Positions 1,997 to 56,846 of a stretch of DNA of 64,000 nucleotides are shown here, piece by piece. The notes beneath the pieces are model-generated. The model was not told the DNA's origin. It did not search any database and was given only the letters and a program-made list of their open reading frames with translations. Positions within the stretch are counted from its first letter, which is position 1; the number at the start of each line of letters is the position of its first letter. The stretch lies in NCBI RefSeq assembly GCF_009914755.1, contig NC_060935.1; one strand, given 5' to 3'. The position numbers were made by a program, and so were the translations under genes. This stretch comes from the human T2T-CHM13v2.0 reference genome, Homo sapiens.

Positions 1997-2572
<576 letters not shown>

Positions 2573-2664
2573 AGAGGGGCATCAGGGAAAATGCCCCTTT
2601 CCCTCTCAAATGATGTTGCTCTTGATGGATGAGCTGCATTATATGCTTTTTTCTAGTTCCAACC

Positions 2665-4060
<1,396 letters not shown>

Positions 4061-4259
4061 CTAATAAAGTATTAAATAAAATATGTTTCTACCTCTTGCT
4101 TTGACAAGCTACCTTTATAGCCCTACAAAGCCAGATTCAAATTAGAGTCCTAAGAATCTTCAAAGTTCCATGTCAGAAGGTGGCCAGGGAAAGCTGCCCT
4201 GGCTCCCAAGTGCCTGCCCATGGCCCAAAGCTTCCCTCCTCCACTTCCCACTGCCAGCT

Positions 4260-4297
4260 GGGTTAGGGTTAGCATTAGGGTTAGGGTTAGGGTTAGA
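4260..4297 (+). repeat. Short interstitial telomeric sequence, (TTAGGG)n, about 6 units with one degenerate
   Basis: gggttagggttagcattagggttagggttagggttaga. Confidence 0.85.
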
Positions 4298-5314
4298 GCC
4301 AGGAAAGAAGCTTACACAGACCCTGGAAGATTAGGAGTCTAGCCCCAAACTAGATCTATGTATGATCTTTCAGGCCTGACTGTAGGAATTACCAAGACAC
4401 ACAAGCAATTTCTTTGTGTGGCAGGCCTCGTGAGGAAAATCTGCCCTCCCCTCACCAGACTTGGTGCACAGCCAATGCATTGCAGTCTCCAAGAGATTTG
4501 CAGTCAAGGACTCACACCCTCTCCCAGCCCCTACCCCCCTGGCCCACAACCTTATGTATATCTGCATTCCTACCTTAGGTGCTTCCATTCAGAGACCTCC
4601 TCGATAGAGGGAGTGAGGGAAGGGGGACCTCTGCTGAGACACTGCTCAAGTGTGTCTGCCACAGGAGAGACTTGAAGACACTTTTCTTTAGTACTCAGAC
4701 TTTTCCACACAGAGAACTTCCCCCTCTCACTGACCCCGATCCTTTCCCCACTCCCACCCTGTCTGGGCTGATCCACCTGACCCTTCCCAGTGCTGTGCTG
4801 TTCTGCAGGGGGAGAGGGCACCTCCTTCTTTCTCTTTTTGCCTCTTGCTTACACAATAAGCAAACTGCAATAAGTGAATAAAGGCTTCCTTGTCACTTTC
4901 AGTTTGTCTCAATGTCTTAGAAATGGGAGCATAGGCTCCAGCTAGATGCTTTCCCTTTGGTTCTGCAGACTAATTTGGAAGATGTGGTCAGTGGATGGCC
5001 AGAGCAGAGTCCAGGAAAAGGAGCCCTCTCAGCAAGGCTAAGAAGGTCCACAGATGCACTCCCTTACCGCTATTATTTGACCTGTCACTGTTTCTCTACC
5101 TCTCCTCCTACCTCCAAACTAGCTAAGCCCACAACTGAAATAAAAAGTAACATTTGTCCTTCACACTACAATTTATAAAGCACATTAACACTCAATATCA
5201 ATTAATCTTACATCCTTATGACCTCATAACATTATTCCCATTTTATAGATAAGAACATTGGGGTTAAGACTTACCCAAAGGCACAAGTGAGAAATTGGCA
5301 CCCCGACCCCATAT

Positions 5315-5404
5315 CTTTTAACTATAGATTTCAAAATTCATGCTTTTTTAAACTATAGCTTTCAAAAATTCAGGCTTTTTAAACTATAAATTTCAAAATT
5401 CATG
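5315..5404. repeat. Tandem repeat, ~30 bp x3
   Basis: Unit approximately ctttttaaactatagatttcaaaattcatg, repeated three times with small variations. Confidence 0.85.
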
Positions 5405-5589
5405 CGAAATTCTACTACTCAGCCTTGCCATGCATCTCCCAGCTTTGCAGGAGGATCTAATCTGGTCTTTAAAAAGCTTCAAAAAGTTTGGGGCGGAGGA
5501 TTTTATCACTAAAAGCAGAGAGGGTATAAAAAAAACAGTCAGGGCTCAGATCTAAAACCATCATGGCAGGAAGAATAAAACACAAGGAC

Positions 5590-6059
5590 AGCAATCTCTG
5601 TCAGGGTCTTAATGCTCCATTCTCATCTCAAAACACAAAATGAGGGCCTTTAATGCACTTAAACAAATGCTAACCAAATTCCACACCAATTACTTGGAAT
5701 ATATGTTCTCAAGCCCTCAATCTTCATACCACCCCACTGAAAATACTTCATTAATGAAAGGACAATAGAAAGCCACTGGGCTTTATCTGTTCAGAGATGC
5801 AGCTTGCAGCAGCCCCGGATAAAGTCTGACCCTCCTCCAGAAAACATCCACTCAAGTTATGCCTCTCTCTAATTACCAGGATGCTTGGACAAGGGCCTAG
5901 CATTTTATTTAGAGAATCATCCCTGCTCCCAGCACAAATAAATACAAGACTGCAGCTGCAGATACTGTCTACTCAGAGCCGGCTTCCTGCAGTTACCATG
6001 TTGTCACCCTATCCTAGGATCTCATCTAGCCACCTCTGCACCCCAAGCTCAGCAGGACC
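5590..6059 (+). promoter_or_regulatory. Duplicated PANX3-like proximal promoter/5'UTR (copy A)
   Basis: Lies directly upstream of the PANX3-like ATG and aligns with 48320-48752 (cacaaaatgagggcctttaatgcacttaaacaaatgc vs cacaaaatgagagccttcaatacacttaagcaaatgc; taattaccagg; tatttagagaa). Confidence 0.6.
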
Positions 6060-6287
6060 ATGTCATTCACTCACACGGCTACAGAGAACATGCTGTCAGA
6101 TGCCCTGTTGCCTGACTAGTGACCCTGTCTCAAGGGGCTAGGCCTGGATCCACCTCCCCCAACCACCCAACCAAACCAAATGGTCAAGTTTATAGCTATA
6201 TCCCCCATCACCACCACTAAATGGCCATTTGCAGCTGCAACCTTCCCCTGCTGTTGAAGTCCCTGACATTTGGCCAGGAATTATCTG
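6060..6287 (+). pseudogene. Pannexin-3 (PANX3)-like exon 1 remnant, copy A
   Basis: From ATG 6060: MSFTHTATENMLSDALLPD**PCLKGLGLD...QMVKFIAI, then a frameshift and PLLLKSLTFGQELS-G followed by GT at 6288. Compare recalled PANX3 MSLAHTAAEYMLSDALLPDRRGPRLKGLRLELPLDRIVKFVAVGSPLLLMSLAFAQEFSSG. Confidence 0.9.
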
Positions 6288-7450
6288 GTGAATTGTCTCA
6301 GAGCAGGAAAGAATCTCACCACCTTCTACTACTCTTTCCGTAGGTTTTAGAGTAAGACAGCTCAAAGTATGAATCCCTCAGTGACTAGATTTCCTAACCC
6401 TGGGCTGGGTTGAGTTACCCAACAGGCAGATCAACTGTATGCTTAGGACACCAGCACAGTGAGTGTCTTTGAAAAGCGTTTCTAAAATTTTACAATGAAA
6501 ACAGCAACCACAACAGCAAAACTCTAAAGAGAAGCTACTTTAATTCCTGCAAATATGTAAGTTAAATAAAAACTTTTTTAGTTTGAATTTCCAGTGGGTG
6601 GCCTCTAAAGGTCTGAATCAGGCCATGCTTTGGCAAGTCACGTATCCAAGACCTCTGGACTCCCCTCCTCCCGGGAGACTGATTGCATCACCTAAGTGAC
6701 ATCATGCCTGCCACAGGATAGGTGGTGAATAATCGTCACTTCCTTTCCCTTCTTTCTCCACTTCCCTGTGTTTCTCTCTACAAACTCAAGACACGCAAAC
6801 ATAAGCAAACCCACATATCTGTCTTTTTAGGTTCCAACTCAGCAATTCCACAACCCCTATTAAAAAGAACGTGGGGCATGCGAGAATTAGGATTTCTGAT
6901 TCTCTCCCCTGCCTGTGCTGTAGACTGAAGGCACTTCCCAGGAGCATTTCCCCAGTCTCCCCACTGCCTCGTCCTTCAGCCATAAGATGGAGACAAGGGT
7001 TGCTCTCACTCAAGACTCCTTTCCTCTTTGTAGCGTCATGCCCCCACCCTCCTCTGTTTCAGAAATCTAGGCAGAAACTCTTCTACAAGTGACAGCTGTC
7101 CTAGGAAGGCACTCTGGTGCAACAAAAACAGCCCGTTGCTGACTTGCCTGGGAGTCAAGAGGAATCTTTGGGAGACAAGAGCTGTAAGACCAGAAGCCTG
7201 AGTCAGAACACTTGGCTGAACTGGGGCAAACAGCAGGTGCTGTCCCCTGCCACACTCTGCACTACTGTGGCCCAGCAGGTACCAACCCAGAAAACAGGAG
7301 CATGGCAGGAGGCAGGGAAAAAAACTGGAAGAGTAGATACACAGATAAAAAAGTGGCCTCTAGCGACTCCTAGGTGGTGGCTCTCCAAGCTCCTCCACTT
7401 CCTCCTCTGTGCTAGCTCGGGCCTGCGTCAAAGCCACATTCCTGTCCCAG

Positions 7451-7575
7451 CATCTACTCTTGCAACATCCGCTCCAAGCAGACTGCCTACACAGACAGCT
7501 CCTGTGGGTTCGCCTTGGCCACTGCAACCAGGATGAGCCAGGCTGATAAAACACGGCACCCTCTGGCTTCCCACA
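7451..7575 (+). pseudogene. PANX3-like exon 2 remnant, copy A
   Basis: After an AG at 7449-7450: IYSCNIRSKQTAYTDSSCGFAL, then shifted-frame HCNQDEPG...DK...LW. Compare recalled PANX3 SPSNFSIRQAAYVDSSCWDSLLHHKQDGPGQDKMKSLWPHK. Confidence 0.8.
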
Positions 7576-8699
7576 TTACAGCAAATAGAGGCTACCTCAC
7601 TAAGCAGAGTGAAAGAGCAACCACCACATAACATTCTTTAATCTGTAAAACTGATATTTCTCTAATCTGGGTAAAACTGTCATAGGAGAGATGATTGGGT
7701 CCAGTGACCCAAAAACTCTGTAGTCTGTAAGCCAACTTCCAGCTCTAAATTTTAATTGATTTCTGACTTTATTTTAGAAAATGTGACCTTTTTCCCCATT
7801 ATTTTTCTCCCATGAGTTTCACCCAATACCAAGAAATAGCCAAAGAAAGCATAAGAGAGAAGGAATTATTTTGTGCTTATTAAAACAAAAAACAAGTCTA
7901 TTTATTAATTTTATGAATTGTTATTTCTAACCACTTAGCAGTTTGAATGTTCAGGAAAAAAAAAAATGTCCTCCCTCTAAAACAGAGAAAAATGCTGAAT
8001 GAAAATGTTAATAACAAACATACTAACCCACCAATTGGCTTAGCTGGTCTAAAAATAAGAGATTTTAGAAGTAAAAAATAAAGACAGAAGCACAGCATCT
8101 AACAGTATAGATAAGGCTGGAGCCACTGTTTCCCTTGGAAGTGTCTGCCAGTCGTAGGAGGCCTGCAGCCTGGGTTTTGACACATGAGGGGCGAGAGATG
8201 AAGCCTGGAGCCCAGGCAGGATGGATGTAGAATTAGAGGCCACCTTACCTCCCCACAACCCTCATAAACCAACGCCAAAAGTATGTAAAGCCTGAGTGAA
8301 TGAGCCAGAAAAGAAGTGTCCCTTCAGGGAGATGGTGAGGATACAGGCTGGTCTCAACCTTGACTCTGGATGGAAAGGGAAAACAGAGAGAAAGGAAAAG
8401 CCTCTGCTTTAAGAATTCTTTACCACACCAGCATACACAGGTGCATAGACCTGGAATTTACATTACCTCTACATGACATGTAAAACCCCAAGCCAAACAT
8501 CTATTAGAAGGAAGTCCTAGATGTCATTATTTATAACTAATTAGAAGTGGGTTAAGTGCTCCAAAGGTAAGTTGAGGGTCTTACGGACTCATTAACTGGG
8601 GAAACTGAACTGACTTTCTAAGGTAAGGTACAGCCTCTCTGAAGAAGTGAAATTCAGATACCCGAAGGATAAGGAAGTGCAGTCACTATCTGGCTTCTC

Positions 8700-8730
8700 A
8701 TTGCTTCTCTGCCTTTTGGCTAAGATCAAG
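8700..8730 (+). pseudogene. 3'-truncated U2 snRNA retropseudogene (about nt 1-31)
   Basis: attgcttctctgccttttggctaagatcaag vs U2 ATCGCTTCTCGGCCTTTTGGCTAAGATCAAG (2 mismatches, both at CpGs). Flanked by at(c/t)tggcttctca direct repeats. Confidence 0.88.
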
Positions 8731-9179
8731 AGAGATTTGGCTTCTCAGTATCAGAACCCTGTTCTCACTGGGGAATCTGCCCTTGTGTGAATCTTAGTTG
8801 AAATCTTCCCACTAGTAAGACCAGACACTAGCTCTCAGACTCCTGGAATCCACAGCCCAACCACACCACCCCATCTCAGCCAATCAGATGCTCTGCATAG
8901 GTCTTGGCTTCCAAAACAAATATTATGAAGAAACCAGGGTCATAGAGAGTTCACAAAGCAAAGACAAAGACAGTGTCTTCCAGCAACCAGCTGTGGTGGT
9001 GTATGTGATATTCCGTTGCCAGTGTAACATAATTGGACTATCCCAAGACTGTGTATGATTCTAGCCATTGGTAGAAAGGTTAAATATGACCTACACTACA
9101 AGGAAAACATTAAGAGGACAAATACTCTTTGGAAAGCATTCAAAAAGAGTCCTAGTAACCATCACCACTCAAAGTCAAG

Positions 9180-9930
9180 AAGAAAATGACAAAGGTTTCA
9201 TTGCAGCAAGTTAGATAGTCTTGTTCCTCAAGGTGTTGAACAGACCGTTCATCACTGGCCCCATCTTGGTGAAGGACACTGTAATTTACACTAACCCATA
9301 GCTTCTGGAGATCTGAGGTACATGAATGTCCCTAATCCAAAAAAAGAAATAAACAGATTTATGGAATCTGGCTGAAGATTTGGACCACTGGGTTAATGAA
9401 AAATGTTGAAAAGAATGAAAACAAAATATGAAAATGATAACACAGCATGGTACACTGCTGGTTCTCATGAATACAAATCCACCTGCTTCTGACATAGGTA
9501 CTGATTCAGGCAGCCTGAAGCGGGCCTATGTTACACAAGTTAAGGCTCATGCAACTGTGATCACAAAACAGGAATTGGTCCATGTCCCTTGATGGACCAC
9601 AGCATCAGCAAATTCTATAACTTATGAACCATCTACAGAAATGAAACTTATGAAAGAGACCGGCAGGGTCATGGCCTCATAGTGATCCAAGGCCAGTGGG
9701 ATAAATATGGAGTAATCACTAATGACAAAGAAGCCAGAGGAAAAGGCTGAGTGTTTGATGTCACATAGGTGATGATGTTCTTTTCTGTCACAAAGCTTAT
9801 TGTCATTTGGGGAGAAATGACAGAGGAATAGAAGAAACCTATGAAGGAAAAGCTAAAGATATAAAGGTACATGGAGGTGTGGCAGTGGGTACATGGAGGT
9901 GTGGTGTGGTCATCCCAGTTAGGGTGACCA
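9180..9930 (-). pseudogene. Heavily decayed OR8-family olfactory receptor pseudogene lacking its N-terminus
   Basis: Minus-strand motifs HTSMYLYIFSFSFIGFFYSSVISPQM...EKNIITY; LDHYEA (MAYDRYVA equivalent); FFGLGTFMYLRSP; PVMNGLFNTLRNK. Multiple stops and frameshifts. Confidence 0.85.
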
Positions 9931-10477
9931 AAACACAGAGTAGAGAGAGGGTTGAAGCTCTGGCTCACCTGTCAACTTAGCGAAAATATATCTGAGAAAA
10001 GAATGACTAAACAACACATAGGTCAAGGAAGAAGAAATCACAGGGAAAATCGAAAAATATTTTGAATAGAAAAATAAGAAAGACACAACAGGAATCTCTC
10101 CTGAGAAAATAATCAGAAATCTAGATAAAAATTTTAACACATTCTTTCAGTAGGAGATTGCTTAATTTTTTAAAAAATTTTAACACAAAACTCATAGTTA
10201 TGGTATTATTTATATCAATTAAATGTTGGGGAGACTGACACAGTGTTAATGTTTAGCAACAGGAAAAAGCTGAAATAAAATATGACATAGCTACATGATT
10301 AATTAAGTCCATGGAAAATTACAATTCAAAAAAATATTGATAAGGAATAAAGATCACATTATAATGATAAGTTAAACAACATTTTGTAACACAGCACATA
10401 CAGGATGATCCCACTGGAAGAGACTTTCATATTCCAGACAATATTCTCCTTTCCTGTTCTCCGAATGGTGGAGTAGA

Positions 10478-11401: not shown

Positions 11402-11505
11402 AGATAGGTGGATGAATAGATAGGCAGATAGATTAGATAAATTAGATAGATATGTACATACATACACAGATACATGCATAGATAGAAAGATACATAGATA
11501 GATAT
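11402..11505. repeat. Degenerate (GATA)n microsatellite
   Basis: agataggtggatgaatagataggcagatagattagat... Confidence 0.8.
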
Positions 11506-12121: not shown

Positions 12122-12155
12122 CCACACACACACACACACGTACACACACACACAC
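12122..12155. repeat. (CA)n microsatellite
   Basis: Direct reading of the sequence. Confidence 0.9.
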
Positions 12156-13393: not shown

Positions 13394-14326
13394 TTAAGAA
13401 AAGATTTTTCTGCCCAAAGTTCTCCTCAGGGCAACTTTGACATCCTTGTTCCTCAAGCTATAGATTAATGGGTTTAACACGGGGACTATTATGGTATAGA
13501 ACAGGGAGGACACTTTCCCTTGCTCGAGGGGCAGGATGGAAAGGGGTTTGAGATACATGAAAGCACCAGAACCAAAGAAAAGAGAAACTACAATTATGTG
13601 GGAACTGCAAGTACTAAAGGCTTTGGACCTGCCTTCTGTAGAACTGTTGTGTAGAATGCTGGAGAGGATGAGGGCATAAGAAATAAAGACAGTGACAATG
13701 GGCATTCCAACGTCAACAGCCACCACAATAAAGACCACCAGCTCATTCATGTAAGAGCTGTTGCAGGAGAGCTCAAGGAGAGGAAGGATGTCACACATGA
13801 AATGATTGACAAGGTTGTCAGCACAGAAGGTCAGGTTCATTATGCTTCCTGTGTGGGCCATGGCCCCAGCAAACCCCATCCCATAGGCACCCAACAAAAG
13901 GAGCAAACACACCTGGCAAGACATGGTGACTGTGTACAACAGTGGGTTACAGATGGCCACGTAGCGGTCATACGCCATCGCTGACAGGATGAAGGACTCA
14001 GAGACGACAAAGAAGCAGAAGAAGAAGAGCTGAGTCATACACCCTGTGAAGGAAATGATGTTCTTCCTTGAGACAAAACTCATCAGCATTTTGGGAGTGA
14101 TGGTAGTGGAGAAACAGAAATCTATTAAAGAGAGGTTAAAAAGGAAGAAGTACATGGGAGTGTGCAGGTGAGAGTTCAGCCCAATCAGGGTTATCAAGCC
14201 CAGGTTCCCCACCACGGTGACCGTGTAGAAACCCAGAAACAGGAAGAAGAGGGGGATCCGCAGTCCCGGCTGGTGGGTTAAGCCTTCGAGGATAAACTCT
14301 GTCACAGAAGAGTTTTTGGCTGCCAT
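13394..14326 (-). CDS. OR8B12: Olfactory receptor family 8 subfamily B member 12, 310 aa, intact
   Basis: Single-exon ORF with N-glycosylation site [31 protein letters not shown] and [12 protein letters not shown]. Sequence recognised from memory as OR8B12. Confidence 0.93.
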   Translation of the reverse strand: MAAKNSSVTEFILEGLTHQPGLRIPLFFLFLGFYTVTVVGNLGLITLIGLNSHLHTPMYFFLFNLSLIDFCFSTTITPKMLMSFVSRKNIISFTGCMTQLFFFCFFVVSESFILSAMAYDRYVAICNPLLYTVTMSCQVCLLLLLGAYGMGFAGAMAHTGSIMNLTFCADNLVNHFMCDILPLLELSCNSSYMNELVVFIVVAVDVGMPIVTVFISYALILSSILHNSSTEGRSKAFSTCSSHIIVVSLFFGSGAFMYLKPLSILPLEQGKVSSLFYTIIVPVLNPLIYSLRNKDVKVALRRTLGRKIFS

Positions 14327-40740: not shown

Positions 40741-41721
40741 ATGGGGTTCTTGTCTCCCATGCATCCCTGCAGGCCTCCCACCCAGAGGAGAATGGCTGCA
40801 GGAAATCACTCTACAGTGACAGAGTTCATTCTCAAGGGTTTAACGAAGAGAGCAGACCTCCAGCTCCCCCTCTTTCTCCTCTTCCTCGGGATCTACTTGG
40901 TCACCATCGTGGGGAACCTGGGCATGATCACTCTAATTTGTCTGAACTCTCAGCTGCACACCCCCATGTACTACTTTCTCAGCAATCTGTCACTCATGGA
41001 TCTCTGCTACTCCTCCGTCATTACCCCTAAGATGCTGGTGAACTTTGTGTCAGAGAAAAACATCATCTCCTACGCAGGGTGCATGTCACAGCTCTACTTC
41101 TTCCTTGTTTTTGTCATTGCTGAGTGTTACATGCTGACAGTGATGGCCTACGACCGCTATGTTGCCATCTGCCACCCTTTGCTTTACAACATCATTATGT
41201 CTCATCACACCTGCCTGCTGCTGGTGGCTGTGGTCTACGCCATCGGACTCATTGGCTCCACAATAGAAACTGGCCTCATGTTAAAACTGCCCTATTGTGA
41301 GCACCTCATCAGTCACTACTTCTGTGACATCCTCCCTCTCATGAAGCTGTCCTGCTCTAGCACCTATGATGTTGAGATGACAGTCTTCTTTTCGGCTGGA
41401 TTCAACATCATAGTCACGAGCTTAACAGTTCTTGTTTCTTACACCTTCATTCTCTCCAGCATCCTCGGCATCAGCACCACAGAGGGGAGATCCAAAGCCT
41501 TCAGCACCTGCAGCTCCCACCTTGCAGCCGTGGGAATGTTCTATGGATCAACTGCATTCATGTACTTAAAACCCTCCACAATCAGTTCCTTGACCCAGGA
41601 GAATGTGGCCTCTGTGTTCTACACCACGGTAATCCCCATGTTGAATCCCCTAATCTACAGCCTGAGGAACAAGGAAGTAAAGGCTGCCGTGCAGAAAACG
41701 CTGAGGGGTAAACTGTTTTGA
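40741..41721 (+). CDS. OR8A1: Olfactory receptor family 8 subfamily A member 1, intact; 326 aa from the first ATG, probably 309 aa from ATG 40792
   Basis: Full 7TM OR motifs ([40 protein letters not shown]); recognised from memory as OR8A1. Confidence 0.93.
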
Positions 41722-46320: not shown

Positions 46321-47050
46321 GAAGAAACAGAAATAAAAATTATTTTTCCTAGACCCACGACCCTCAGGTACATACCAGTGAACCCATCCAAGAAGCTCTG
46401 GATCAGACAGAGCTAGCCACTGAACCATTGAATAGAGAGACAGGCAAGTTCACCTTTAATAATTGTGAGGTCTTGGGAAAGACTATCTACATGTTTAAAA
46501 GTTGTAAATTAAGCTAGCAAAGTGTTAAATATTTTCCTTCCTCCTACCCTGATAGATATACCTTCATAACAAGCTAGATGTCCAGGTTCAAATTTAGAAA
46601 TCTCAGAATTCTAAGAGTTCCATGCCAGAAAGTGGTACTAGGAAAGGGCTCTTCCTGGCACCTGGCATTCTCCCCACAGACACAGCTTTCCACCTCTGCT
46701 TCCCACTCCCCATTGTGTCCCATTCCACAAGGGACCTCACATGTACACATGTATGGGCAACCTGGTATTCAAACTCTTGGTCCATACACCTGCACAAAGC
46801 AACCCCTGACTGTCCCTTTTATCTAGGGTTGAACAGCCAGTAGTGGTCTGCCTTCAGGACATTGTTCTGGGGAAGAGCCTTGTAAGCAGGTACAGGGTAT
46901 TTAGGGAGGGAATTCTGGTATCCCCAACACTACTAAGGGATGCATAGGCTCTAACTGGGCACATCCTCTTGGATCCATTCACCCCATAAGGAAGGTATAG
47001 CCAGGGGAGGGCTGAAAACAGAGACACCTTTCACAAAATCTAAGAGGAGT

Positions 47051-47351
47051 ATTATTATTATTATTATTATTATTGAGACAGAGTCTTGCCCTGTCACCCA
47101 GGCTAGAGTGCAGCAGTGCGATCTCGGCTCACTGCAACCTCTGCCCCTGGGTTCAAGTGACCCTCCTCCTCAGCCTCCAGAGTAGCTGAGATTACAGGCA
47201 CCCGCCACTGCGCCCAGCTAATTTTTGTATATTTAGTAGAGACAGGGTTTCACCATCTTGGCCAGGCTGTCTCGAACTCCTGACCTCGTGATCCTCCTGC
47301 CTTGGCTTCCCAAAGTGCTGGGATTATAGGCATGAGCCACCGCACCCAGCC
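47051..47351 (-). mobile_element. Alu (S-type) with (TAA)n tail
   Basis: Reverse Alu; flanking agtattatta repeats. Confidence 0.95.
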
Positions 47352-47577
47352 AGACAGTATTATTAAAGTGACCTTTGTCTATATGTTTGCCCATAGCTGC
47401 TTCTCTTCTCCCTAGACTGGAAAATCCACAGTTAAAATAAGATATATTTTTTGTTCCTCATATTATAGTTTATAAAGCATCTTAATACTCAGTACTAATC
47501 AATGTTCACAATCTGGTGAGATCATCAATCTACTGTTTTACAAATAAGAAAAATGGGGCTAAGTTATTTCTTCAAAT

Positions 47578-48150
47578 TGTGAACTAAACAAAGACCACCA
47601 AATAAGAATAAGTAAAGGCTATTGATTCATAACACGCAATAGCAAGGGAGTCTGCCATCATCACTTGGTAGAGACTCATAGGCAGGAAGGAAAGTTGTAA
47701 AGCTTTATAGTGAAAAAAGCAGGAGGCTTCAGGTATGCTCTAATTGGAGGTTGTTGGCACTGGGAAGCTGGAGAGAGGCTAGCTAGAAGTAGAGCACCTA
47801 TGTGATTGGTTTAAAAAGCATACTTGGCTTTCTCTGATTGCTCTCAAGGTGGAGGCAAGGGCAAAAATCAAAGAAGCTGCCAGTCATTGACCAAGTCCTG
47901 ACCATTCTGGGCCAATTGCTGCAGAGGTTGTAGTTTGGCTTCCCAGGCTGGTAGCTGCAGGGGCTGTGGGTAAGAGTTATATTTTTATATATGGTCTGGA
48001 CATTGTCTGGTTGTATATTCAGTCTCTCCAAAGTGACATAGTGAAAAACTGGTACTACTGGTACTACCATCTGTCCAGACTTTTGATCATAGCTTTGAAA
48101 GTTTTTCCACTTCTGTGCCCTGCCATGCATTCAGAGATTTTCAGAAGGAC
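47578..48150. mobile_element. Probable ERV LTR remnant, family not resolved
   Basis: TG start and LTR-like composition (ctgattg; cattgaccaagtcctgaccattc). Confidence 0.4.
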
Positions 48151-48319
48151 CCAATGTAATTGAAACAAATTACAAAAAGTCCACAGCAGGCACACAGAGA
48201 GAATGGGCTTTACCTTCAAATGCATAGCAGTTTGGGAATAGGAACCACAGTTCAGAACTAAAGCCTTCTCTGGGAAAAAGAACAAAATGCCGAAGAAGCA
48301 ATCCAAGGCAGAGTTATGG

Positions 48320-48752
48320 GGTCTCTGTTCTCATTCCCAAACCACAAAATGAGAGCCTTCAATACACTTAAGCAAATGCCATTCAAATTTCACACCAATT
48401 ACACAGGGTCCATGTAATTGGACCATATCCTTCCTTTCCCCATCACTGTGCTGGAAAGTTCTCATTTGCCACTGTTTAGAACAAAGTAAGGGAGCTCCGC
48501 TGACTTAAGGTCAGCTTAGGGTAAGTAGCCTGGCACCAGTCCCAACAGAAGTTAGACTATCCTCCAGCAAAGACCTGCTCAAGGCCAAGCCTCCGTTTAA
48601 TTACCAGGGGCCTGGCCAGTTATTTAGAGAACATCTCCTGTTCCTAGCATGGATAATTGCTCAAAGCCAGCTTCCTGAAGCTGTCGTGTCCTTTTTCTGT
48701 CTGTCCTGGCATCCCTTCAGGTTGTCTCTGCACTGCCATGCTCATCAGAATC
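48320..48752 (+). promoter_or_regulatory. Duplicated PANX3-like proximal promoter/5'UTR (copy B) with a RUNX motif
   Basis: Aligns to 5590-6059; AACCACA at 48340-48346; homeodomain-type ccaattac and ttaattacc. Confidence 0.6.
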
Positions 48753-48877
48753 TTGTTGCTTGTGCACATGGCTGCAGACCCTATGATCTCAGAAGCCCTG
48801 CTGCCAACAAAATGGGCAAGTTCATAGCTGTGGGCTTGCCGCTGCTGCTGATGTCCCTGGCCCAGGAGTTTTCCAGT
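48753..48877 (+). pseudogene. PANX3-like exon 1 remnant, copy B
   Basis: The ATG is replaced by TTG. LLLVHMAADPMISEALLP, then a deletion/frameshift, then NKMGKFIAVGLPLLLMSL--AQEFSS; compare PANX3 MSLAHTAAEYMLSDALLP...DRIVKFVAVGSPLLLMSLAFAQEFSS. Confidence 0.9.
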
Positions 48878-49280
48878 GTGTTGCTGCCACTACCCGGTGC
48901 AGCAGGGGTAGACTACACTACCTTATTCCTCTCATTGCATGGGATCTGGAGTAAGACAGCTGTGAGTATGATTCATACGCTAAGCAAGTTTCATTATTTT
49001 GGCTGGGTTGGATGTAATGAAATAAGCAGACAAACCATGCACTTAGGCACCAGAAAATCAGGGCAACAAGAAGGTTTTGGAAAACATTTTCACAATTTTC
49101 CAATTAAAGAAACTAAAAACAAACAACTTCAGTTTCAGAATATATGTACTTATTGTGTCATTTCAAATATTAATTTTTATTTTAAATTTTACATGGCTGA
49201 GGGAGATTGGGCACTGTAATGTTTTTTAAGGGCCTAGGACCCCAATGTAATCAAGACAGTTGGTCAACTAGTGAAGAGGT

Positions 49281-49723: not shown

Positions 49724-50227
49724 GCAGTTGACGCTTGAACAACGCAGGAGGAGTTGAAATGCCAACCCCCTACCCAGCCAAAACTCTGCTTGTAGCTTTG
49801 ACTCCCCAAAAGCTTAACTAGTAATAGTCTCCTTTTGACCAGAAGCCTTACCAATAACATAAACAGTCAATTAACATATTTTGTATGTTATATGTATTAT
49901 GCACTGTATTCTTACAATAAAATAAGAGAAATGCAAATACCACTAAAAAAATCATAAAGAAGAGAAAATATATTTACTATCCACTAAGTGAAAGTAAATC
50001 ATCATATAGGTCTTCACCCTCATTGTCTTCACGTTGAGTAGCCTGAGGAGGAGGAAGAAGAGGGAGGGTTGGTCTTGTTGTCTCAGGGGTGTCAGAGAAG
50101 GAAGAGGTGGAGGAGGGGGAAGGGGAGGCAAGAGAGGCAGGCACACTCCATGTAACTTTTATTGAAATAAATACATATATAAATGGATCCATGCAGTTCA
50201 AGCCCATGTTGTTTAAGGAACAAGTGT
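49724..50227. mobile_element. Tigger2-family (Tigger2a/MER28) DNA transposon
   Basis: TIRs cagttgacgcttgaacaacgc...cccatgttgtttaaggaacaagtg. Confidence 0.8.
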
Positions 50228-51234
50228 ATTTCCATTTTGAAAATAAGTAAACTGAGGTTAACAAATGTGAAATAATTATACAGCCTCTGAGGTTAGTAAG
50301 AAGCAGAGGAGATATGCAAGCACACATCTAGTAGACCTCAAAAGAGCATGCTCTCTTTTTAAGGCACCAGGCTACAATATAAGGATGTCCTTATGTTATA
50401 CTTAAGATTGGAGTTCATGTACAAATCCACATAGGCTCCACGTGAGAGGCAAACCCAGCAGGAGCATCATTCTGTGCAAACCATATGGGCTTTGCAATCA
50501 GGATGACTTAAATCCAAACTCTGACACTCATCGACTGCAAAAACAAAGAGGAGCCCCACTGGGTACTTCTGCTGAATAAAGCATTGCCAGTGTCAATCTC
50601 AAAAAAAAAAAAAAAAAAATATTGGATCCTCGTACAGGAAACCAATCTGTAAGAAGAGATGCCTGGATGGAAAAAGGAGAGGAGCTGGTTTCCTTTCTCA
50701 GCATGGACTTTGAAAGGTAGACAGGTTCAAATGCGATCTCACACAGTGAGGCAGATTATAGCCTCTGCAGCAGCAGGAGCAGAGTACGGAAACCTCTGTG
50801 GGACCCTACAAGCTGACAATGATTAAACAGTATCTCATAAGACATATTCTCTAGACATGCTCCACCTTTATTTCCCTTTCACCATCAACTAGCCTTAGGA
50901 CAGTCATGCTGGACCCTCCTAATCTTGTCTCAAGATGCACCAGAGAACAGCAAGTTTATGGTCATTTGTCCACTGTTAAGGGGAAGCAGGAGTCCTCTGA
51001 GGCCTGCATACTTGGGGGCACACAACAGAGAGAAGACGCAGGAAAGGGCAGGGATATTCTCCAGAACAGAACCTAGGATGCTTGGTGCAATCATCCCTCC
51101 CCACCCAGAATCAGCTTCAGTTCCAAATTTGAATGTTTCCGGTTTATTTTAGAAAAAATGGCTTTTTCCCTTTTTGTCCCTCTCCTCCAGAAGATTCCCC
51201 AAGTACACAGCACTGAATAAGAATGAATGAATCT

Positions 51235-51512
51235 GGCCAGGTGCGGTGGCTCACTCCTGTAATCTCAGCATTTTGGGAGGCCAACGTGGGTGGATCATGA
51301 TGTCAGGAATTCAAGACCAGCCTGGCCAAGATGGTGAAGCCCTGTCTCTACTAAAAATACAAAAATTAGCCGGGCATGGTGGTGGGTGCCTGTAATCCCA
51401 GCTACTTAGGAGGCTGAGGCAGAGAATTGCTTGAACCTGGGAGGCGGAGGTTGCAGTGAGCCGAGATCGCACCACTGCACTCCAGCCTGGGCGACTGAGC
51501 AAGACTCTGTCT

Positions 51513-51563
<51 letters not shown>
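51235..51563 (+). mobile_element. Alu (S-type) with a 50-nt pure poly-A
   Basis: Full dimer; A-run at 51514-51563. Confidence 0.95.
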
Positions 51564-51565
<2 letters not shown>

Positions 51566-52633
51566 ATAGCATGAAATATCTGTTTATTAAGACAATTATT
51601 AAAACATTCATTCATTGATAAAATAGAAAAATATTCACATAAATAGCCCTTTCTGGCTATATGATCAAAGAAAAATACCTCTCTCACCGGAGCACATACA
51701 AAAGTAGTAGATAAGTAATATTAAAGCAACTTTTTATTGAATGGTATGGTTTGTGAGACGGTAAAGGAAGTTGCTATGAAGGCAAAAAAAAAAATGGTAA
51801 GAAAGCAGGCATCTGACTATGTAAATGAAGCCTGGACTCAGTGTTCACCTAGGTGTGTCTTCCAGTCGTTGGAGTCCTTGGAAAGTCCTGAGCTTTCACA
51901 CATGAAAAGCAAGAGATGAGGCCTGGAGCCCACGCAGGACAGAGGTGGTATTAGAGGCCATGTCACCTCCCCACCACCCTTGTAAACTCATGCTGAAAGA
52001 AGGTAAACCTGAGTGAATGAACTGGAAAAGAATTGCCCCCTCAGAGAGATGGTGAGGATACAGGCTGGTCTCAGCCTTGGCTCTGGATGGAGGAGGGGGT
52101 AGAAAATGGAAAACCCTCTCCCCTGAAAATCCCTCACCAGTCTGCACTCAAATGTGTATGAACTTGGAATGTGGATGGAACAATCTCTCTGTAACTCGTA
52201 GAGCCCCATACCAAAAATATACTATAAAGAGATCCTAGATGTTATCACTTACAATGGATTAGAAGTGTGGTAAGTGCTCCAAAGGGAAGCATAGGGTTGT
52301 ACAAAAGCATTTAACTGGGGGAAACTGAACTGAGTCTTCAGGGTCAGAAATAGGCTCTCTGAGGAAGTGAAATCCAGACACCTGAAGGATAAGGGAGTGC
52401 AGTCAATATTTGGCTTCTCAGCATCAGAACCCACCTTTCTGTTAGGAGAATCTGCCTTTGTTCAAGTCTTTATTGAAATCTTCTCACTTGGCAGCTATTA
52501 AGGCCAGAGCAAGTGTCTGAATATGCCCTCTGTTGAAGGTAAGAGGAACATTCGACCTCTGCCAACTAGATGCTCCCACTCAGGACTTTACTTCTGGAGC
52601 AAGCAGTGCAGAGAAACAAAGATAATTTCAGGT

Positions 52634-53092
52634 TGCTATGGTTTGTTTGTCCCCACCAACACTCATGTTGAAATTTGATACTCATTGTGGTGGGGTTGGG
52701 CTGTGGGGTGGGAGGTGTTTGGATCACAGGGGCGGATCCCTCATGAGTGGCTCGGTGTCCTTCTACAGCAGTGAGTGAGTTCTTACTCTGGTGAGACTGG
52801 ATTAGTTCTCAAAGGAATGAATTCGTTCCCTCCGAAGTGGGTTGTTATAAGCCAGGACGGCCCTTGGGGTTTGCCTCTTTGCCTTTGTCTGCTTCCCCTT
52901 TGACCTTCTCTGCCATGTTATGACCTAGCACAAAAAGCCCTCACCAGAATCTAAGCAGATGCCAGGGCCATGCATCCCATACTGCCTAGCCTGCAGAGCT
53001 GTGAGCTCAGTAAACCTCTTTTCTGTATAAGTGATCCAGTCTGAGGTATGATTATCCATTTGTGTTACAGCAACACAAAATGGACTAAGATA
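52634..53092 (+). mobile_element. MST-type MaLR solo LTR
   Basis: tgctatggtttg...caacacaaaatggactaagata; 5-bp TSD caggt (52629-52633 and 53093-53097). Confidence 0.85.
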
Positions 53093-54590
53093 CAGGTCCA
53101 TAACGGAAAACACAAAGATGGCAACCACTAGCAACCAGCCGTGTTGTGTGGTGCTATCAGGTGGCCAGAGGCCAGGGCTACTTAAACCAATGCAGGCCTC
53201 ACTTATGGCCTTAGCTGGGATTCTGGTCACCTGGCTCCCCTGGATCCTGATTATTCCCAGATCTGGTTTCCCAGACTTCTCTAATAGTCTAGTTGCCCTG
53301 TATCTTTTCAATGCATTCCTTTCCTGCTGGAGTTCACCAGAGTCAGATTCTATTTTTTCGCAGCTAAGAGCCATCGCTGGTTATAATAGAAGCTGGCCAG
53401 ATGGTGCATCTGAGGGAAATGATAGGGAGTGAGAAAAGTGCCCAGCAGCACAGCAGCCCTCTCAGATGCCTGTGACTGCTCATCAACCCCCACCCTCCTC
53501 CTGGTAAGGTGGAAACAGCTTTTCCCTTCCTCTTCCACATCATACTCTTGCTATGTTTATTCTTGTTTTTCTCTTCCAGACTCTTTCTGTTGGTACAGTA
53601 AGGCAAAAAAAAAAAAAAAAGAAAGAAAGAAAATGAAAAAAAGCAAGAAAGAAAAAGAAAATGTACGAACAGACCAGATTCCAGAGACCAACATCCTTGG
53701 TAAAGAGTGTGGGGAAGTCTGTAGTCAATTTGCCTTACGAGAACTACATTTTAAGTGACTAACCTAAATATTAATGCCCTAATGTCAGCAAAACAACTAT
53801 AAACACACATGCTTCCAATATAGATATCTATATTTGTATCAGCTCAAATTTTACTAAGATTCTTAAAATAATTTAGTGTATTCCCAAAATTATTACTGAA
53901 ATCTAACAAAGTGAATGACATGATTACTATTTAAATGTTACACATGTGGTATAGGTAGCATTTGTATTTTAAACATTCACTGTGATAGCAGAGGACTATC
54001 TCTATGTGACACACAGGCACACACATAGATACCACACACCCTGTCTGTTAAAGTTCCTTAGGTAACCAATACGAGAGTAGCTCATTGCTCATTTGACAAG
54101 ATTTATTTTATGGTACTTTGTTTTTAAATAATTATAGCTTTGCTTTTATGACAGGTAACTGGCCATATCTTTATTTATTTTATATTCAATCTTTATTCAG
54201 AAACCATGTCCTATTTTTTGACACTGTAACTATAGAAATTCGTGGTCAGATTTATGATACAAGAAAAACTCATTGCTATGAATCCTGAATGATGAATAGA
54301 AGATGACCAGAAAAGAATGGGCGAGGGTTTTGTAGGCAGAGAAGACAACATGAAAAAAAAGATACGGAGGCACAAAAAAACCCACGTATATTTAGGGAAG
54401 GGTAGATGATATTATGGTGAAATCACTGCATGTGTGGAAGCGTGAAATAGGGGAGCTTTGGCGCAACTGTTAATTTTATGCGTCGCTTTGACTGTATCAT
54501 GTTAGATGGAAGAACGGCTTTGTTATTTCCTTTATCTGGACATTAAGTGCAAGAAAATGTGTACGGATGCTGAGTAAACAAGCGCTAAAC

Positions 54591-55104
54591 TGTGATAGCT
54601 AATTTTATGTAACAGCTTGGCTGGGCTATGAAATCCAGCTGTTTGAGCAAACATTAGTCTAGCTGTTGCTGTGGGTGTGAATTTTATCTGTGATTAACTT
54701 TTATGGTCAGTTGACTTTAAGTAAAGCAGATTATAGCAGACTATCATGTAGCAGGCTTCGTCCAATCCATTGAAGAACAAAGGGCAAAGGAGTTTCCAGA
54801 GAAGAAGGAGTTCTGCCTCGAGACTGTGACATAGAAACCCACCTGAGTTTCCAGCCTTCTGGCCTGCCCTGTGAATTTGAGATTCCAAACTACAACATCA
54901 ATTCTTACCTGAACTTCCAGGCTGTGCCTGCCCCACAAATTTCATATTTTCCAGTCCCCACAATCATGTGAGCCAATTCCATAAAACACAGGTCCCTGCA
55001 GACATACCATCCATCTATACAGTATATCTGTATAGATATATAGATAGATAGAGATACACAGATATAGGTAGGGTTCTGTTTCTCCGGAGAACCCGGACTG
55101 ATAC
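54591..55104 (+). mobile_element. MLT2-type (ERVL) solo LTR
   Basis: tgtgatagctaattttatgtaacagcttggctgggct...ttctgtttctccggagaacccggactgataca. Confidence 0.8.
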
Positions 55105-56846
55105 AAGAGGTTACAGGTGATAATTAATCATCCTCCCCTCCACACTCTGAGAATTGAGAAAGAAGAAGCCAGATAGAAAGAGATGAAGATTAGCCTAAAC
55201 ACTGATGAAGTTCATAGAAGGGCATAGCTTAGAGCTGCAGCCACAACAGGACTCCCTAATTCCGTCTGTGCTTCCCCAGATTAATTTTACAAACCTAGAC
55301 ACGAGCTGAGATGGCAACTGCAGCTCTTGTCTACGAAAGGAGAGCACTTAGAAGAGGAAGAAAGAGACTCCTGAGGACAGGGCTGTCCTAAAAAGAGAAT
55401 GCTCAGGGGGCTCAGCCATCCTTAACCCATGCTGTTTCCCAGCCTCAAGAGGCAGGAGTCACTATTCTTTCTGGGGGTTGAGTCTAGTGGGGAGAAGGAA
55501 AAGAGAAGGGGCTCCTCCCACTCTTTACCTTCCTGAGGCACAGAAGGAGTAGGTATCCCATTAAACAGGCTGGTCTGCTTTGGGTTCAGTCACAGACGGG
55601 GCAATCATTTCCCCACAGCAAGTTTCCTTCTTGTGACATGTAAAATACTTGCTTGTAAAGTTCTGCTGTAGTTCAGTACTGTGCTATCTTACTTTTGAGA
55701 TGAATTAATTTTTTTTAATGTTCTCAAAAGTAATTAAGAAACTTTAAGACACAGCTTCTACTTTTTCCCCGTTTAGCGTAGCTGTTTCTCTCTGCTAGTC
55801 AGAGTTTGGATCTGCCTCTGGGAGCCCAAGTGCAATTGGAGGGTAAATACACAAAGTGTGTCTCTCAAGTCAAGAGCAGCCAGAGACCTCTCAACCTAAC
55901 AGCCTGAGTTTTCTTTTACATATTTCAGAGTCCTCAGTAAAAATCCAGAGAAGGCTCCCTCAGTTACTTCCTAGAGTTACTATAGAAAACAAGAAATTAT
56001 GTCCTTTGAGTTTACACATGTAGCAACTTTAACAACCTCCATGTTCGATTTTGCTTCAACACTGAAAGCAATGAAAGGAGGTGCCTACCCTGTCTCCCTC
56101 CCCCATTTGGTTGATGCTAAGTGGGAATTCCTAGGCTAGATCTCTATAAAAATGGCCGAAATTCAGTAACACAATTTGTGGAGCTGGCAATTAGGCAGGG
56201 TCTTTACATTGTGCACATGACAAAGCCCTTTTCATATCGCCATCTTCAATTAAATTATATAAAATTATTCAAAGCTACTAAGATCTCTGTTTTCCTGAGT
56301 AATGGCAGGTAATGCCTTGAGAGAGCTTAAAATCAGTTGATATGGAGTAGAGAGGAAAAACTGTTCATTTGCTATTGGTTCCGGGGAGCAGTATTGTGCC
56401 CTTGAAGAACAGCAGGGAAGAGTCACACCATAAGCATGTGACGTTTTTCTTCTTTTCAGAGGTTCAAATTGGGGCATACACTCGCTGTTATTTTCAGAAA
56501 GGCAGAAGCTCTCTACACAAATGCATCATCCTTTTAGTCAGAAAACATTTAATGCCCTCATACTCTCAGCAATTCTAAGTAAAATAGGAAATAAAGAATA
56601 AATAATAGCCAGTCATTTTTTAGGTTTTCTTTAGAATATAAATTTATTGAATAATGCCTTAGTGCTTGCTAGAATTTACTTCTTAAAATAAGTATATACA
56701 TGATATATAAATATATTTGTATACTATGTATATGTGTGTAAATATATTCCCCTTATTAAGTAAAAAAGTCTTTGTAAGAAGCTGTGTCTTAAGGTTTCTT
56801 AATTACTTTGGGGAATATTTAAAAATATGTATCTCAAAAGTAACAA

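What the first reader, a model, noticed from the sequence alone, without database searches (positions are those of the whole stretch)
5590..7575. Unprocessed PANX3 pseudogene (promoter, exon 1, intron, exon 2) hidden in the OR8 cluster
The ORF track misses this because of stops and frameshifts. ATG 6060 reads MSFTHTATENMLSDALLPD**PCLKGLGLD..MVKFIAI..PLLLKSLTFGQELSG|gt. About 1.16 kb later, after an AG, comes ..NIRSKQTAYTDSSC..QDEPG..DK..LW. These match the recalled PANX3 N-terminus/TM1 and first extracellular loop, including one conserved Cys. The retained intron and upstream region indicate a DNA-level duplication, not a retrocopy. I know of only three human pannexin genes and no annotated PANX3 pseudogene, though I cannot verify annotation here. 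This may record lost extra pannexin paralogues.
Basis: partly seen in the sequence, partly recalled or inferred. Interest (0 to 1): 0.88.

Follow-up and report, generated by a model that had tools for sequence, protein, structure and literature searches.

The report
Truncated PANX3 pseudogene in OR8 cluster
This stretch is a dead, broken copy of the first two exons of the pannexin-3 gene, one of four such leftovers that were dragged along when a block of smell-receptor genes next to pannexin-3 was copied several times long ago.

Summary
Window 5485-7585 (+) aligns base by base with the real PANX3 gene 76 kb downstream: promoter and 5'UTR, exon 1 (6060-6287), intron 1 (6288-7450; 1163 bp against 1242 bp in PANX3) and exon 2 (7451-7575). 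Both splice junctions of intron 1 lie at the homologous positions. It is a DNA-level (unprocessed) copy, not a retrocopy. It is dead: two in-frame stops, a +38-nt and a -16-nt frameshift, further 1-nt deletions and a destroyed exon-2 donor.

It is not a relic of a lost full-length pannexin. No counterpart of the non-Alu parts of PANX3 intron 2, or of exon 3, intron 3 or exon 4, exists anywhere in the 204 kb examined. It is also not alone. Three more PANX3 5' fragments lie on the same strand at about -66 kb, -37 kb and +48 kb (the last inside this window). Each sits at the same place in a repeated unit: OR8B (-), OR8A (+), PANX3 fragment (+). The copies share lesions and share non-PANX3 DNA beyond the break, so one truncated copy was probably made first and then re-copied with the olfactory-receptor unit.

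RefSeq lists nothing here, and four literature searches found no mention. This is a new member of a known kind, of modest interest.

The parts
4026..5447 (+). Scattered upstream patches of psi3 (4026-4165, 5128-5293, 5389-5447), homologous to DNA 0.5 to 1.4 kb upstream of the PANX3 start site
   Evidence: matches to PANX3-locus 80724-80884 (66%), 81292-81466 (66%) and 81509-81566 (73%). They are collinear with the main block.
5485..6059 (+). psi3 promoter and 5'UTR homologue. It includes the TATA-like TTATTTAGAGAA at 5905-5916, which aligns to the same 12-mer about 30 bp before the RefSeq PANX3 start (82092).
   Evidence: Identity to PANX3 81684-82220 is 352 of 522 aligned bases.
6060..6287 (+). 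psi3 exon 1. The ATG at 6060-6062 is kept. Lesions: TAG 6117-6119 and TGA 6120-6122 beside a 3-nt deletion; +15 nt from 6156; +38 nt from 6201 (frameshift, frame 1 to frame 3); 3-nt deletion after 6282.
   Evidence: Identity to PANX3 exon 1 is 128 of 175 aligned bases. PDB phmmer against Pannexin-3 gave E 3.1e-6.
6288..7450 (+). psi3 intron 1 (1163 bp; PANX3 intron 1 is 1242 bp). The donor G|GTGAAT is in the same phase-1 position as PANX3 G|GTAAGT. The acceptor ag is at 7449-7450.
   Evidence: Identity is 607 of 1102 aligned bases. Shuffle z scores are 16.1, 24.2 and 10.5 for three parts.
7451..7575 (+). psi3 exon 2. Lesions: 16-nt deletion at its start; 1-nt deletions after about 7504 and 7558; TGA TAA in the pannexin-like frame. 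The exon-2 donor GT is changed (TT at 7576-7577). The second Cys codon of the loop is kept (TGT 7503-7505).
   Evidence: (z=11.1). Identity is 77 of 126 aligned bases.
7586..7732 (+). Interval that holds the old duplication junction. PANX3 homology has stopped, and homology to the DNA that follows psi4 has not yet begun.
   Evidence: last PANX3 match ends at 7585; downstream control z=0.6; 7733-7852 matches 51112-51228.
7733..8813 (+). Post-junction DNA, the start of the next repeat unit. It is shared with the DNA after psi4 and not with PANX3 intron 2.
   Evidence: 7733-7852 matches 51112-51228 (66%); 8073-8700 matches 51787-52420 (74%, E 4e-116); 8735-8813 matches 52408-52488 (78%).
2279..2657 (+). 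OR8A3P, the OR8A-type member of the same repeat unit as psi3. It is the counterpart of OR8Q1P upstream of PANX3.
   Evidence: Hub table; 2297-2567 matches 72280-72535 (73%); 81% to OR8A1 over 94 aa.
46484..49241 (+). psi4, a second PANX3 5' fragment in this window. It has upstream patches at 46484-46607 and 47432-47562, then promoter, exon 1 (about 48753-48880, with ATG changed to TTG) and about 360 bp of intron 1 (48154-49241). No exon 2 is detectable.
   Evidence: tblastn 48759-48877, E 4.6e-6; 62% over 1204, E 7.5e-82; exon 2 is not supported, since 8 of 200 shuffles reach the score.
50227..55452 (+). Post-junction DNA after psi4, the start of the last unit. It is shared piecewise with the DNA after psi1, psi2 and psi3.
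   Evidence: 50227-50600 matches -62488..-62079; 53210-55298 matches -61695..-59738 (psi1 side); 53807-55452 matches -33064..-31388 (psi2 side); 51112-52488 matches 7733-8813 (psi3 side).
13394..14326 (-). OR8B12, the OR8B-type member of the repeat unit that ends in psi4
   Evidence: Hub table; paralogous to OR8B10P, OR8B9P and OR8B8 at the same relative position in the other units.
40792..41721 (+). OR8A1 coding region, the OR8A-type member of the unit that ends in psi4
   Evidence: Hub table; window 1309-2049 matches 39857-40815.

Best explanation
Window 5485-7585 (with patches back to 4026) is a non-functional, truncated DNA-level duplicate of the 5' part of PANX3: promoter, exon 1, intron 1 and exon 2.

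Inferred history. A tandem segmental duplication of the olfactory-receptor block just upstream of PANX3 had its distal breakpoint in PANX3 intron 2, within about 150 bp of exon 2. That produced a headless-body copy, with promoter and two exons but no exons 3-4, which could never encode a four-helix pannexin. The copy was already disabled when the whole unit was duplicated again. The unit runs OR8B (-), then OR8A (+), then the PANX3 fragment (+). Repeated duplication gave four fragments in a row upstream of the intact gene: psi1 near -66 kb, psi2 near -37 kb, psi3 (this finding) and psi4 near +48 kb. Since then each fragment has decayed on its own.

Shown here: homology and its limits, lesions, copy number, unit structure, tree. 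Inferred: order of events, single origin, age, lack of function.
For: 1. Homology to PANX3 at the DNA level, collinear from upstream to the exon 2 end, with splice sites in homologous positions.

2. Flanking collinearity beyond the gene. Window 992-1181, 2297-2567 (OR8A3P) and 2753-2903 match 70930-71119, 72280-72535 (OR8Q1P) and 77530-77682 upstream of PANX3.

3. Nothing 3' of exon 2. A sensitive blastn of PANX3 83700-93000 against 204 kb gave only one non-self, non-Alu match, an 85-bp hit that lies beyond the gene's end. The best non-self tblastn hit for exon 4 was E 0.075, and no convincing exon 3 hit appeared among those shown; that output was cut.

4. Four copies and no more. The genome-wide DNA search with the PANX3 5' 932 bp found itself plus four places, all on chr11 within 150 kb and all on the + strand. 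The protein search found 6 places: PANX3, PANX1, PANX2, psi2, psi3 and psi4.

5. Same position in a repeated unit. The OR map reads B(-) A(+) psi1 | B(-) psi2 | B(-) A(+) psi3 | B(-) A(+) psi4 | Q(+) PANX3.

6. Post-junction DNA is shared among the units and is absent from PANX3 intron 2.

7. psi1 and psi3 fall in different clades of the tree, yet they share a 1-nt gap in the same exon-2 column and the same altered donor: CCACATTA, where PANX3 has CCACAAG|GTA.

8. Tree on 719 columns: (PANX3:0.157,(psi1:0.183,psi2:0.188)100:0.085,(psi3:0.295,psi4:0.305)76:0.041). The terminal branches are long and the PANX3 branch is shorter, as expected for neutral copies beside a constrained gene.

9. No sign of constraint in the copies. 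Columns invariant among the four copies are not clustered: 415 of 2000 column shuffles reach the best observed window. No ORF of 50 aa or more lies in a pannexin frame.
Against: - psi2 and psi4 show no detectable 3' intron 1 or exon 2. The common end point is therefore seen in only 2 of 4 copies, and the other two need later deletion or heavier decay.
- The psi3+psi4 clade has only 76% support.
- The position of the shared 1-nt gap differs between the two alignments, so that character is soft.
- The differences between PANX3 and psi3 in exon 1 are skewed by codon position (16, 8 and 23 of 58 each). This could hint at a period of coding constraint. It is also what synonymous change on the PANX3 side would give, and psi1 shows no skew (17, 20, 15).
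- Function as a regulatory element or a transcript could not be tested. No expression or chromatin data are on hand.
- The age is not measured against other species.
Confidence: 0.85

Rival explanations
1. The fragment is what remains of a once complete, functional extra pannexin (a PANX3 tandem paralogue) whose 3' exons were deleted later.
For: The ATG, the intron-1 donor GT and the acceptor AG are still present in psi3. PANX3-psi3 exon-1 differences are fewest at second codon positions (8 of 58, against 16 and 23).
Against: No exon 3, exon 4 or unique intron 2 sequence lies beside any of the 4 copies. psi1 and psi3 stop at the same point and share lesions. Non-PANX3 DNA beyond the break is shared among the units. 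A single breakpoint in intron 2 explains this more simply than four parallel deletions. The codon-position skew is absent in psi1 and is expected from synonymous change in PANX3 itself.
Confidence: 0.06
2. The four fragments arose by two or more independent partial duplications from PANX3, with recurrent breakpoints near exon 2. They would then not descend from one truncated ancestor.
For: The unrooted tree joins PANX3 at the node between the two psi clades, with no resolvable psi stem. Only 2 of 4 copies show the exon-2 end.
Against: psi1 and psi3 belong to different clades, yet they share the altered donor and a 1-nt gap. The post-junction blocks are homologous among the units. All copies hold the same place and orientation in the OR8B/OR8A unit.
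Confidence: 0.07
3. The copy has been co-opted. Its retained PANX3 core promoter would act as a promoter of a non-coding transcript or as a regulatory element in the olfactory-receptor cluster.
For: The TATA-like 12-mer is identical in PANX3, psi2, psi3 and psi4, and differs at 2 bases in psi1. The splice donor and acceptor of intron 1 are kept in psi3.
Against: Invariant columns among the four copies are not clustered more than chance (415 of 2000 shuffles). The Runx-like AACCACA upstream of PANX3 is kept only in psi4, not in psi3 (the naming of the motif is recalled, not tested). RefSeq lists no functional element in the window (hub table).
Confidence: 0.07
4. The similarity is due to chance, or the fragment is a processed retrocopy.
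For: The short frame pieces of exon 2 and of the exon-1 tail are not significant as proteins.
Against: DNA E-values range from 1e-65 to 1e-97 and include the promoter and the intron. The shuffle z scores are 10.5 to 24.2. The intron is present at the homologous position.
Confidence: 0.005

Closest known systems
Human PANX3 (pannexin 3), the parent gene 76 kb downstream on the same strand
   Same: The upstream region, 5'UTR, exon 1, intron 1 and exon 2 are homologous and collinear. The intron-1 boundaries are the same. The TATA-like box is kept. The N-terminal peptide aligns to residues 1-56 of solved Pannexin-3 chains.
   Different: It lacks exons 3 and 4, about 70% of the protein, including the later membrane helices. 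It has stops, frameshifts and a ruined exon-2 donor. It is about 30 to 40% diverged in DNA.
Unprocessed (duplicated) pseudogenes and partial gene copies at the edges of tandem segmental duplications
   Same: It is a DNA-level copy near the parent, in the same orientation. It keeps the promoter and intron, is truncated at the duplication boundary, and is then re-copied with the unit.
   Different: Nothing in kind. The particular point is that the passenger marks every unit of the OR8A/OR8B array (4 of 4 units upstream of the intact gene).
Processed pseudogenes (retrocopies)
   Same: It is a disabled copy of a protein-coding gene.
   Different: Here the intron and the promoter are retained, and the copy lies in tandem with its parent. 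It is not a retrocopy.
PANX1 and PANX2, the other human pannexins
   Same: The exon-1 peptide of PANX3 also finds PANX1 (59% identity, E 7.7e-14) and weakly PANX2 (E 0.58) in the genome.
   Different: The fragment's DNA matches only the PANX3 locus, non-coding parts included. It derives from PANX3, not from PANX1 or PANX2.

Membership tests
Derived from PANX3 (pannexin family, sequence homology) | Significant similarity to the PANX3 protein or DNA | tested here: met
   Pannexin-3, E 3.1e-6; 4 of 4 hits; E 5.8e-73; E 2.5e-97; E 4.7e-4 genome-wide.
Functional pannexin / innexin-fold channel subunit | A complete coding region with all four membrane helices (PANX3 exons 1-4) and an open frame | tested here: not met
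   There is no exon 3 or 4 homologue in 204 kb. Stops lie at 6117-6122 and frameshifts are present.
Functional pannexin / innexin-fold channel subunit | A match to Pfam Innexin (PF00876) | tested here: inconclusive
   0 families for both psi3 pieces. The true PANX3 exon 1 also gave 0, and the true exon 2 gave only E 0.013, below the cut-off. The test has no power on such short pieces.
Unprocessed (duplicated) pseudogene | An intron retained at the homologous position | tested here: met
   the donor is in the same phase, the acceptor ag is at 7449-7450, and intron homology has z from 10.5 to 24.2.
Unprocessed (duplicated) pseudogene | Homology extends into non-transcribed upstream DNA and flanking genes | tested here: met
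   homology runs back to 4026, and farther, collinearly, to 992, through OR8A3P/OR8Q1P.
Unprocessed (duplicated) pseudogene | Disabling lesions relative to the parent | tested here: met
   indels of -3, +15, +38 and -3 nt in exon 1, and -16, -1 and -1 nt in exon 2. TAG and TGA; donor GT lost.
Unprocessed (duplicated) pseudogene | Not expressed as a functional product | not testable with these tools
   No expression data are on hand. Only the lack of an ORF and the lack of clustered conservation bear on this.
Passenger of a tandem repeat unit (OR8B-OR8A-psiPANX3) | The same relative position and strand in each unit, and shared DNA beyond the truncation point | tested here: met
   4 of 4 fragments are on the + strand and downstream of the unit's OR genes. 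The OR8A-type member is missing in 1 of 4 units. Post-junction blocks are shared pairwise.

The most novel reading that the evidence does not exclude
The four PANX3 promoter and exon-1 relics would not all be inert. At least one would keep promoter or enhancer activity and give a spliced non-coding transcript or a regulatory input to neighbouring OR8 genes. psi3 is the likeliest candidate, because it still has the TATA-like box, the ATG and both intron-1 splice sites. A bone/skin-type promoter would then have been seeded repeatedly into an olfactory-receptor cluster. Separately, the fragments give a built-in, non-OR marker for reconstructing and dating each step of the OR8A/OR8B expansion across mammals.
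Probability: 0.08. Interest if true: 0.5.

Novelty: new member of a known kind. Interest (0 to 1): 0.3.

Why it matters
On its own this is an ordinary decayed gene fragment. It does not add a fourth pannexin, past or present, to the human set.

Its use is as a marker. The break in PANX3 intron 2 fixes one edge of the duplication unit of the OR8A/OR8B array. The four copies, with their shared and private lesions, give an independent way to order and date the expansions of this olfactory-receptor cluster, free of the gene conversion and selection that blur OR trees.

It also matters for annotation. RefSeq has no feature here. PANX3-directed probes, guides or promoter analyses should take account of four 60-70% identical promoter and exon-1 copies within 150 kb.

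Tried and rejected
- Later exons on the + strand. Three-frame PDB searches of 6060-15061 found only the exon-1 match in frame 1 (E 8e-4), 0 hits in frame 2, and one low-complexity hit in frame 3.
- Pfam Innexin scan of the pieces. It has no power, since even the true PANX3 exon 1 scores nothing.
- PDB phmmer with the exon-2 frame piece (0 hits) and with the exon-1 tail (5 weak non-pannexin hits).
- A possible exon-2 remnant of psi4 at 50859-50972 (tblastn E 0.14). It was rejected: the local DNA score is reached by 8 of 200 shuffles against PANX3, by 151 of 200 against psi3 and by 90 of 200 against psi1.
- Constraint on the promoter in the copies. It was rejected: 415 of 2000 column shuffles reach the best observed window.
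- One search aligned the wrong stretch of L015 through my own coordinate slip. It is disregarded, and repeats it correctly.
- Literature. 'PANX3' + 'pseudogene' gave 10 papers, none about such a pseudogene by title or abstract start. 'pannexin' + 'unprocessed pseudogene' gave 0. 'PANX3' + 'olfactory receptor' + 'duplication' gave 1, a goat GWAS. Six phrase variants including PANX3P gave 1 paper, on amphioxus. Only the listings were seen; no paper was opened.
- GENCODE, Ensembl, HGNC and pseudogene catalogues could not be consulted.
Full report
**Observation.** The window is human T2T chr11:124558001-124622000 (hub table; confirmed).
- From ATG 6060, frame 1 reads MSFTHTATENMLSDALLPD, then TAG TGA (6117-6122), then PCLKGLGLD...MVKFIAI.
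- Frame 3 reads PLLLKSLTFGQELSG up to a G|GT at 6287|6288.
- After ag at 7449-7450 come NIRSKQTAYTDSSC, QDEPG** and LW, in three different frames.

**Protein-level identity.** A search of all solved-structure sequences with the 77-residue read-through (X at stops) returned four distinct sequences. All four are Pannexin-3, with best E 3.1e-6, and query residues 1-59 align to chain residues 1-56. The shorter frame pieces are not significant as proteins. The exon-2 piece gave 0 hits. The exon-1 tail gave 5 weak hits, none a pannexin. Pfam's Innexin model has no power on such pieces, because it also misses the true PANX3 exon 1.

**DNA-level identity.** The genome that holds the window could be searched. 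Window 5590-7600 found the PANX3 5' end at chr11:124639766-124640312 (71% identity, E 1.4e-65), plus two weaker places upstream.

I fetched 100 kb to the left and 40 kb to the right of the window and worked in window coordinates. From the locus itself I derived the coding exons of PANX3:
- Exon 1 runs from ATG 82221 to 82401, with a phase-1 donor G|GTAAGT.
- Intron 1 is 1242 bp.
- Exon 2 is 83644-83786.
- Exon 3 ends at 88153.
- Exon 4 ends at 90596.

Blastn gave window 5533-6148 against 81684-82312 at 70.8% over 643 columns, E 5.8e-73. With sensitive settings, 5485-7010 matched 81640-83155 (61.3% over 1616, E 2.5e-97) and 7153-7585 matched 83381-83796 (58% over 454, E 2.6e-5). Patches reach back to 4026.

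A global alignment puts the pseudogene's donor (G|GTGAAT, 6287|6288) and acceptor (ag 7449-7450) exactly opposite those of PANX3. The copy's intron 1 is 1163 bp. Identities over aligned bases are:

| Part | Identity |
|---|---|
| Promoter and 5'UTR | 352 of 522 |
| Exon 1 | 128 of 175 |
| Intron 1 | 607 of 1102 |
| Exon 2 | 77 of 126 |

Dinucleotide-shuffle controls gave z=11.1 for exon 2 and z=16.1, 24.2 and 10.5 for three parts of intron 1. In each, 0 of 300 shuffles reached the observed score. The stretch just past exon 2 (7586-8000 against PANX3 intron 2) is at chance, with z=0.6 and 90 of 300 shuffles reaching it. The fragment is therefore a DNA-level copy with promoter and intron, not a retrocopy.

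**Lesions**.
- Exon 1: a 3-nt deletion beside the TAG TGA pair; a +15-nt insertion from 6156; a +38-nt insertion from 6201, which shifts the frame; and a 3-nt deletion after 6282.
- Exon 2: a 16-nt deletion at its very start; 1-nt deletions near 7504 and 7558; TGA TAA in the pannexin-like frame; and loss of the exon-2 donor (TT at 7576-7577).
- No ORF of 50 aa or more in the region lies in a pannexin frame.

**Where it stops.** PANX3 83700-93000 was searched against the whole 204 kb with sensitive settings. The Alu-free parts of intron 2 (83800-84931 and 86738-87937), exon 3, intron 3 and exon 4 matched nothing but themselves. The single other low-copy hit is an 85-bp match that lies beyond the gene's 3' end. 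In tblastn with the exon peptides, the best non-self hit for exon 4 had E 0.075, and no convincing exon 3 hit appeared among those shown; that output was cut. Three-frame PDB searches of 6060-15061 found nothing further.

**It is one of four.**
- tblastn with the PANX3 exon-1 peptide found further + strand matches at -65219..-65074 (with exon-2-like pieces at -63539..-63418), at -36302..-36136, and at 48759-48877.
- Sensitive blastn defined the copies. psi1 spans -66422..-63437 and has promoter, exon 1, intron 1 and exon 2. psi2 spans -37087..-36111 and has promoter and exon 1 (66% over 1039, E 4.5e-108). psi3 is this finding. psi4 spans 46484-49241 and has promoter, exon 1 and about 360 bp of intron 1 (62% over 1204, E 7.5e-82).
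- A genome-wide DNA search with 932 bp of the PANX3 5' end returned the gene itself and exactly these four places.
- The exon-1 protein search returned 6 places: PANX3, PANX1, PANX2, psi2, psi3 and psi4.
- The ATG is kept in psi1 and psi3, is ATA in psi2 and is TTG in psi4. The intron-1 donor GT is kept in psi3 and psi4 and is lost in the same way in psi1 and psi2.
- A suggested exon-2 remnant of psi4 did not survive a shuffle test.

**The repeat unit.** A map of OR8A-like and OR8B-like coding sequence, combined with the fragment positions, reads:
- OR8B8 (-), OR8A2P (+), psi1
- OR8B9P (-), psi2
- OR8B10P (-), OR8A3P (+), psi3
- OR8B12 (-), OR8A1 (+), psi4
- OR8Q1P (+), PANX3

Several results tie the units together.
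- The flanks of psi3 are collinear with the flanks of PANX3: 992-1181, OR8A3P and 2753-2903 match 70930-71119, OR8Q1P and 77530-77682.
- The flanks of psi3 are also collinear with those of psi4.
- Beyond the point where PANX3 homology ends, the units resemble each other and not PANX3. Window 7733-7852 and 8073-8813 match 51112-51228 and 51787-52488, at up to 74% identity and E 4e-116. The DNA after psi1 and after psi2 matches 53.2-55.5 kb after psi4.

This pattern is what a tandem duplication leaves when its right edge lies in PANX3 intron 2. Each truncated copy is followed by the start of the next unit.

**Single origin and order.**
- On 719 columns present in all five sequences, the maximum-likelihood tree is (PANX3:0.157,(psi1:0.183,psi2:0.188)100:0.085,(psi3:0.295,psi4:0.305)76:0.041).
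- psi1 and psi3 lie in different clades. Yet both are one base short in the same column of exon 2, and both have CCACATTA where PANX3 has CCACAAG|GTA.
- The simplest reading is that the ancestor of all four fragments was already truncated and disabled.
- The exact column of the 1-nt gap differs between the two alignments, and the psi3+psi4 clade has moderate support, so this step is inferred, not shown.

**Age (inference).** The terminal branches of 0.18 to 0.30 substitutions per site are several times the divergence among the Alu elements in the region (about 15 to 23% pairwise). An Alu lies in the post-junction DNA of psi4 (51235-51541) and is absent from the matching gap after psi3. With a recalled mammalian neutral rate of about 2e-9 per site per year, the splits would be roughly 80-150 million years old. 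This needs other mammals to test.

**Function.** Nothing suggests any.
- Columns invariant among the four copies are not clustered: 415 of 2000 shuffles reach the best observed window.
- The TATA-like 12-mer is identical in PANX3, psi2, psi3 and psi4 and differs at two bases in psi1, but that is within what the shuffle test allows.
- Differences between PANX3 and psi3 in exon 1 are fewest at second codon positions (16, 8 and 23 of 58 each). psi1 shows no such skew (17, 20, 15), and synonymous change on the PANX3 side would give the same pattern.
- Expression and chromatin state could not be examined.

**Known or new.** RefSeq's table for the window has no feature at 5485-7585 or at 46484-49241 (hub table). 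Four full-text searches found nothing on a PANX3 pseudogene or on PANX3 fragments in the OR8 cluster (listings only, no paper opened). GENCODE, HGNC and the pseudogene catalogues could not be checked.

In kind, this is a familiar object: a partial, unprocessed pseudogene at the edge of a tandem duplication. What is new is the instance, and the observation that it marks all four units of the OR8A/OR8B array upstream of the intact gene. It does not point to a lost fourth pannexin.

**Verdict.** The 'lost paralogue' idea is not supported. Interest is modest at 0.3.

Noticed in passing
window 46484-49241 (+): A second PANX3 promoter and exon-1 fragment (psi4) lies 5 to 7 kb downstream of OR8A1. 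Its start codon is changed to TTG, and it has a private insertion of about 500 bp in its upstream part (47.6-48.0 kb in the five-way alignment). RefSeq does not annotate it.
   Followed up: yes
outside the window: chr11 about 124491570-124494563 (window -66430..-63437) and about 124520913-124521889 (window -37087..-36111): Two further PANX3 5' fragments (psi1 and psi2) lie here. psi1 keeps exon 2 and has a private insertion of several hundred bp between its promoter and exon 1. psi2 has no detectable OR8A-type gene in its unit.
   Followed up: partly
window 952-1045 and 2566-2659 (+): A 94-bp direct repeat at 88% identity has its second copy overlapping the 3' end of OR8A3P (2279-2657) and its first copy about 1.2 kb upstream of the gene. 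It is much younger than the unit duplications. Its origin was not examined.
   Followed up: no
window 9196-9887 (-): LOC100421985 (OR8B3-like pseudogene) was not picked up by tblastn at E 1e-6 with OR8A1 or OR8B12. It does match the OR8B8 and OR8B9P DNA at about 59-60%. The unit that ends in psi4 therefore carries two OR8B-type sequences, one of them very decayed.
   Followed up: no
window 50227-50600 (+): This block matches only -62488..-62079, the DNA after psi1, at 60%. It fits as the start of the repeat unit and is missing after psi3.
   Followed up: partly
window about 12100-12160 (+): A CA/TG-type simple repeat reads as HTHTHT in translation and gave the only, spurious, frame-3 PDB hit.
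   Followed up: no
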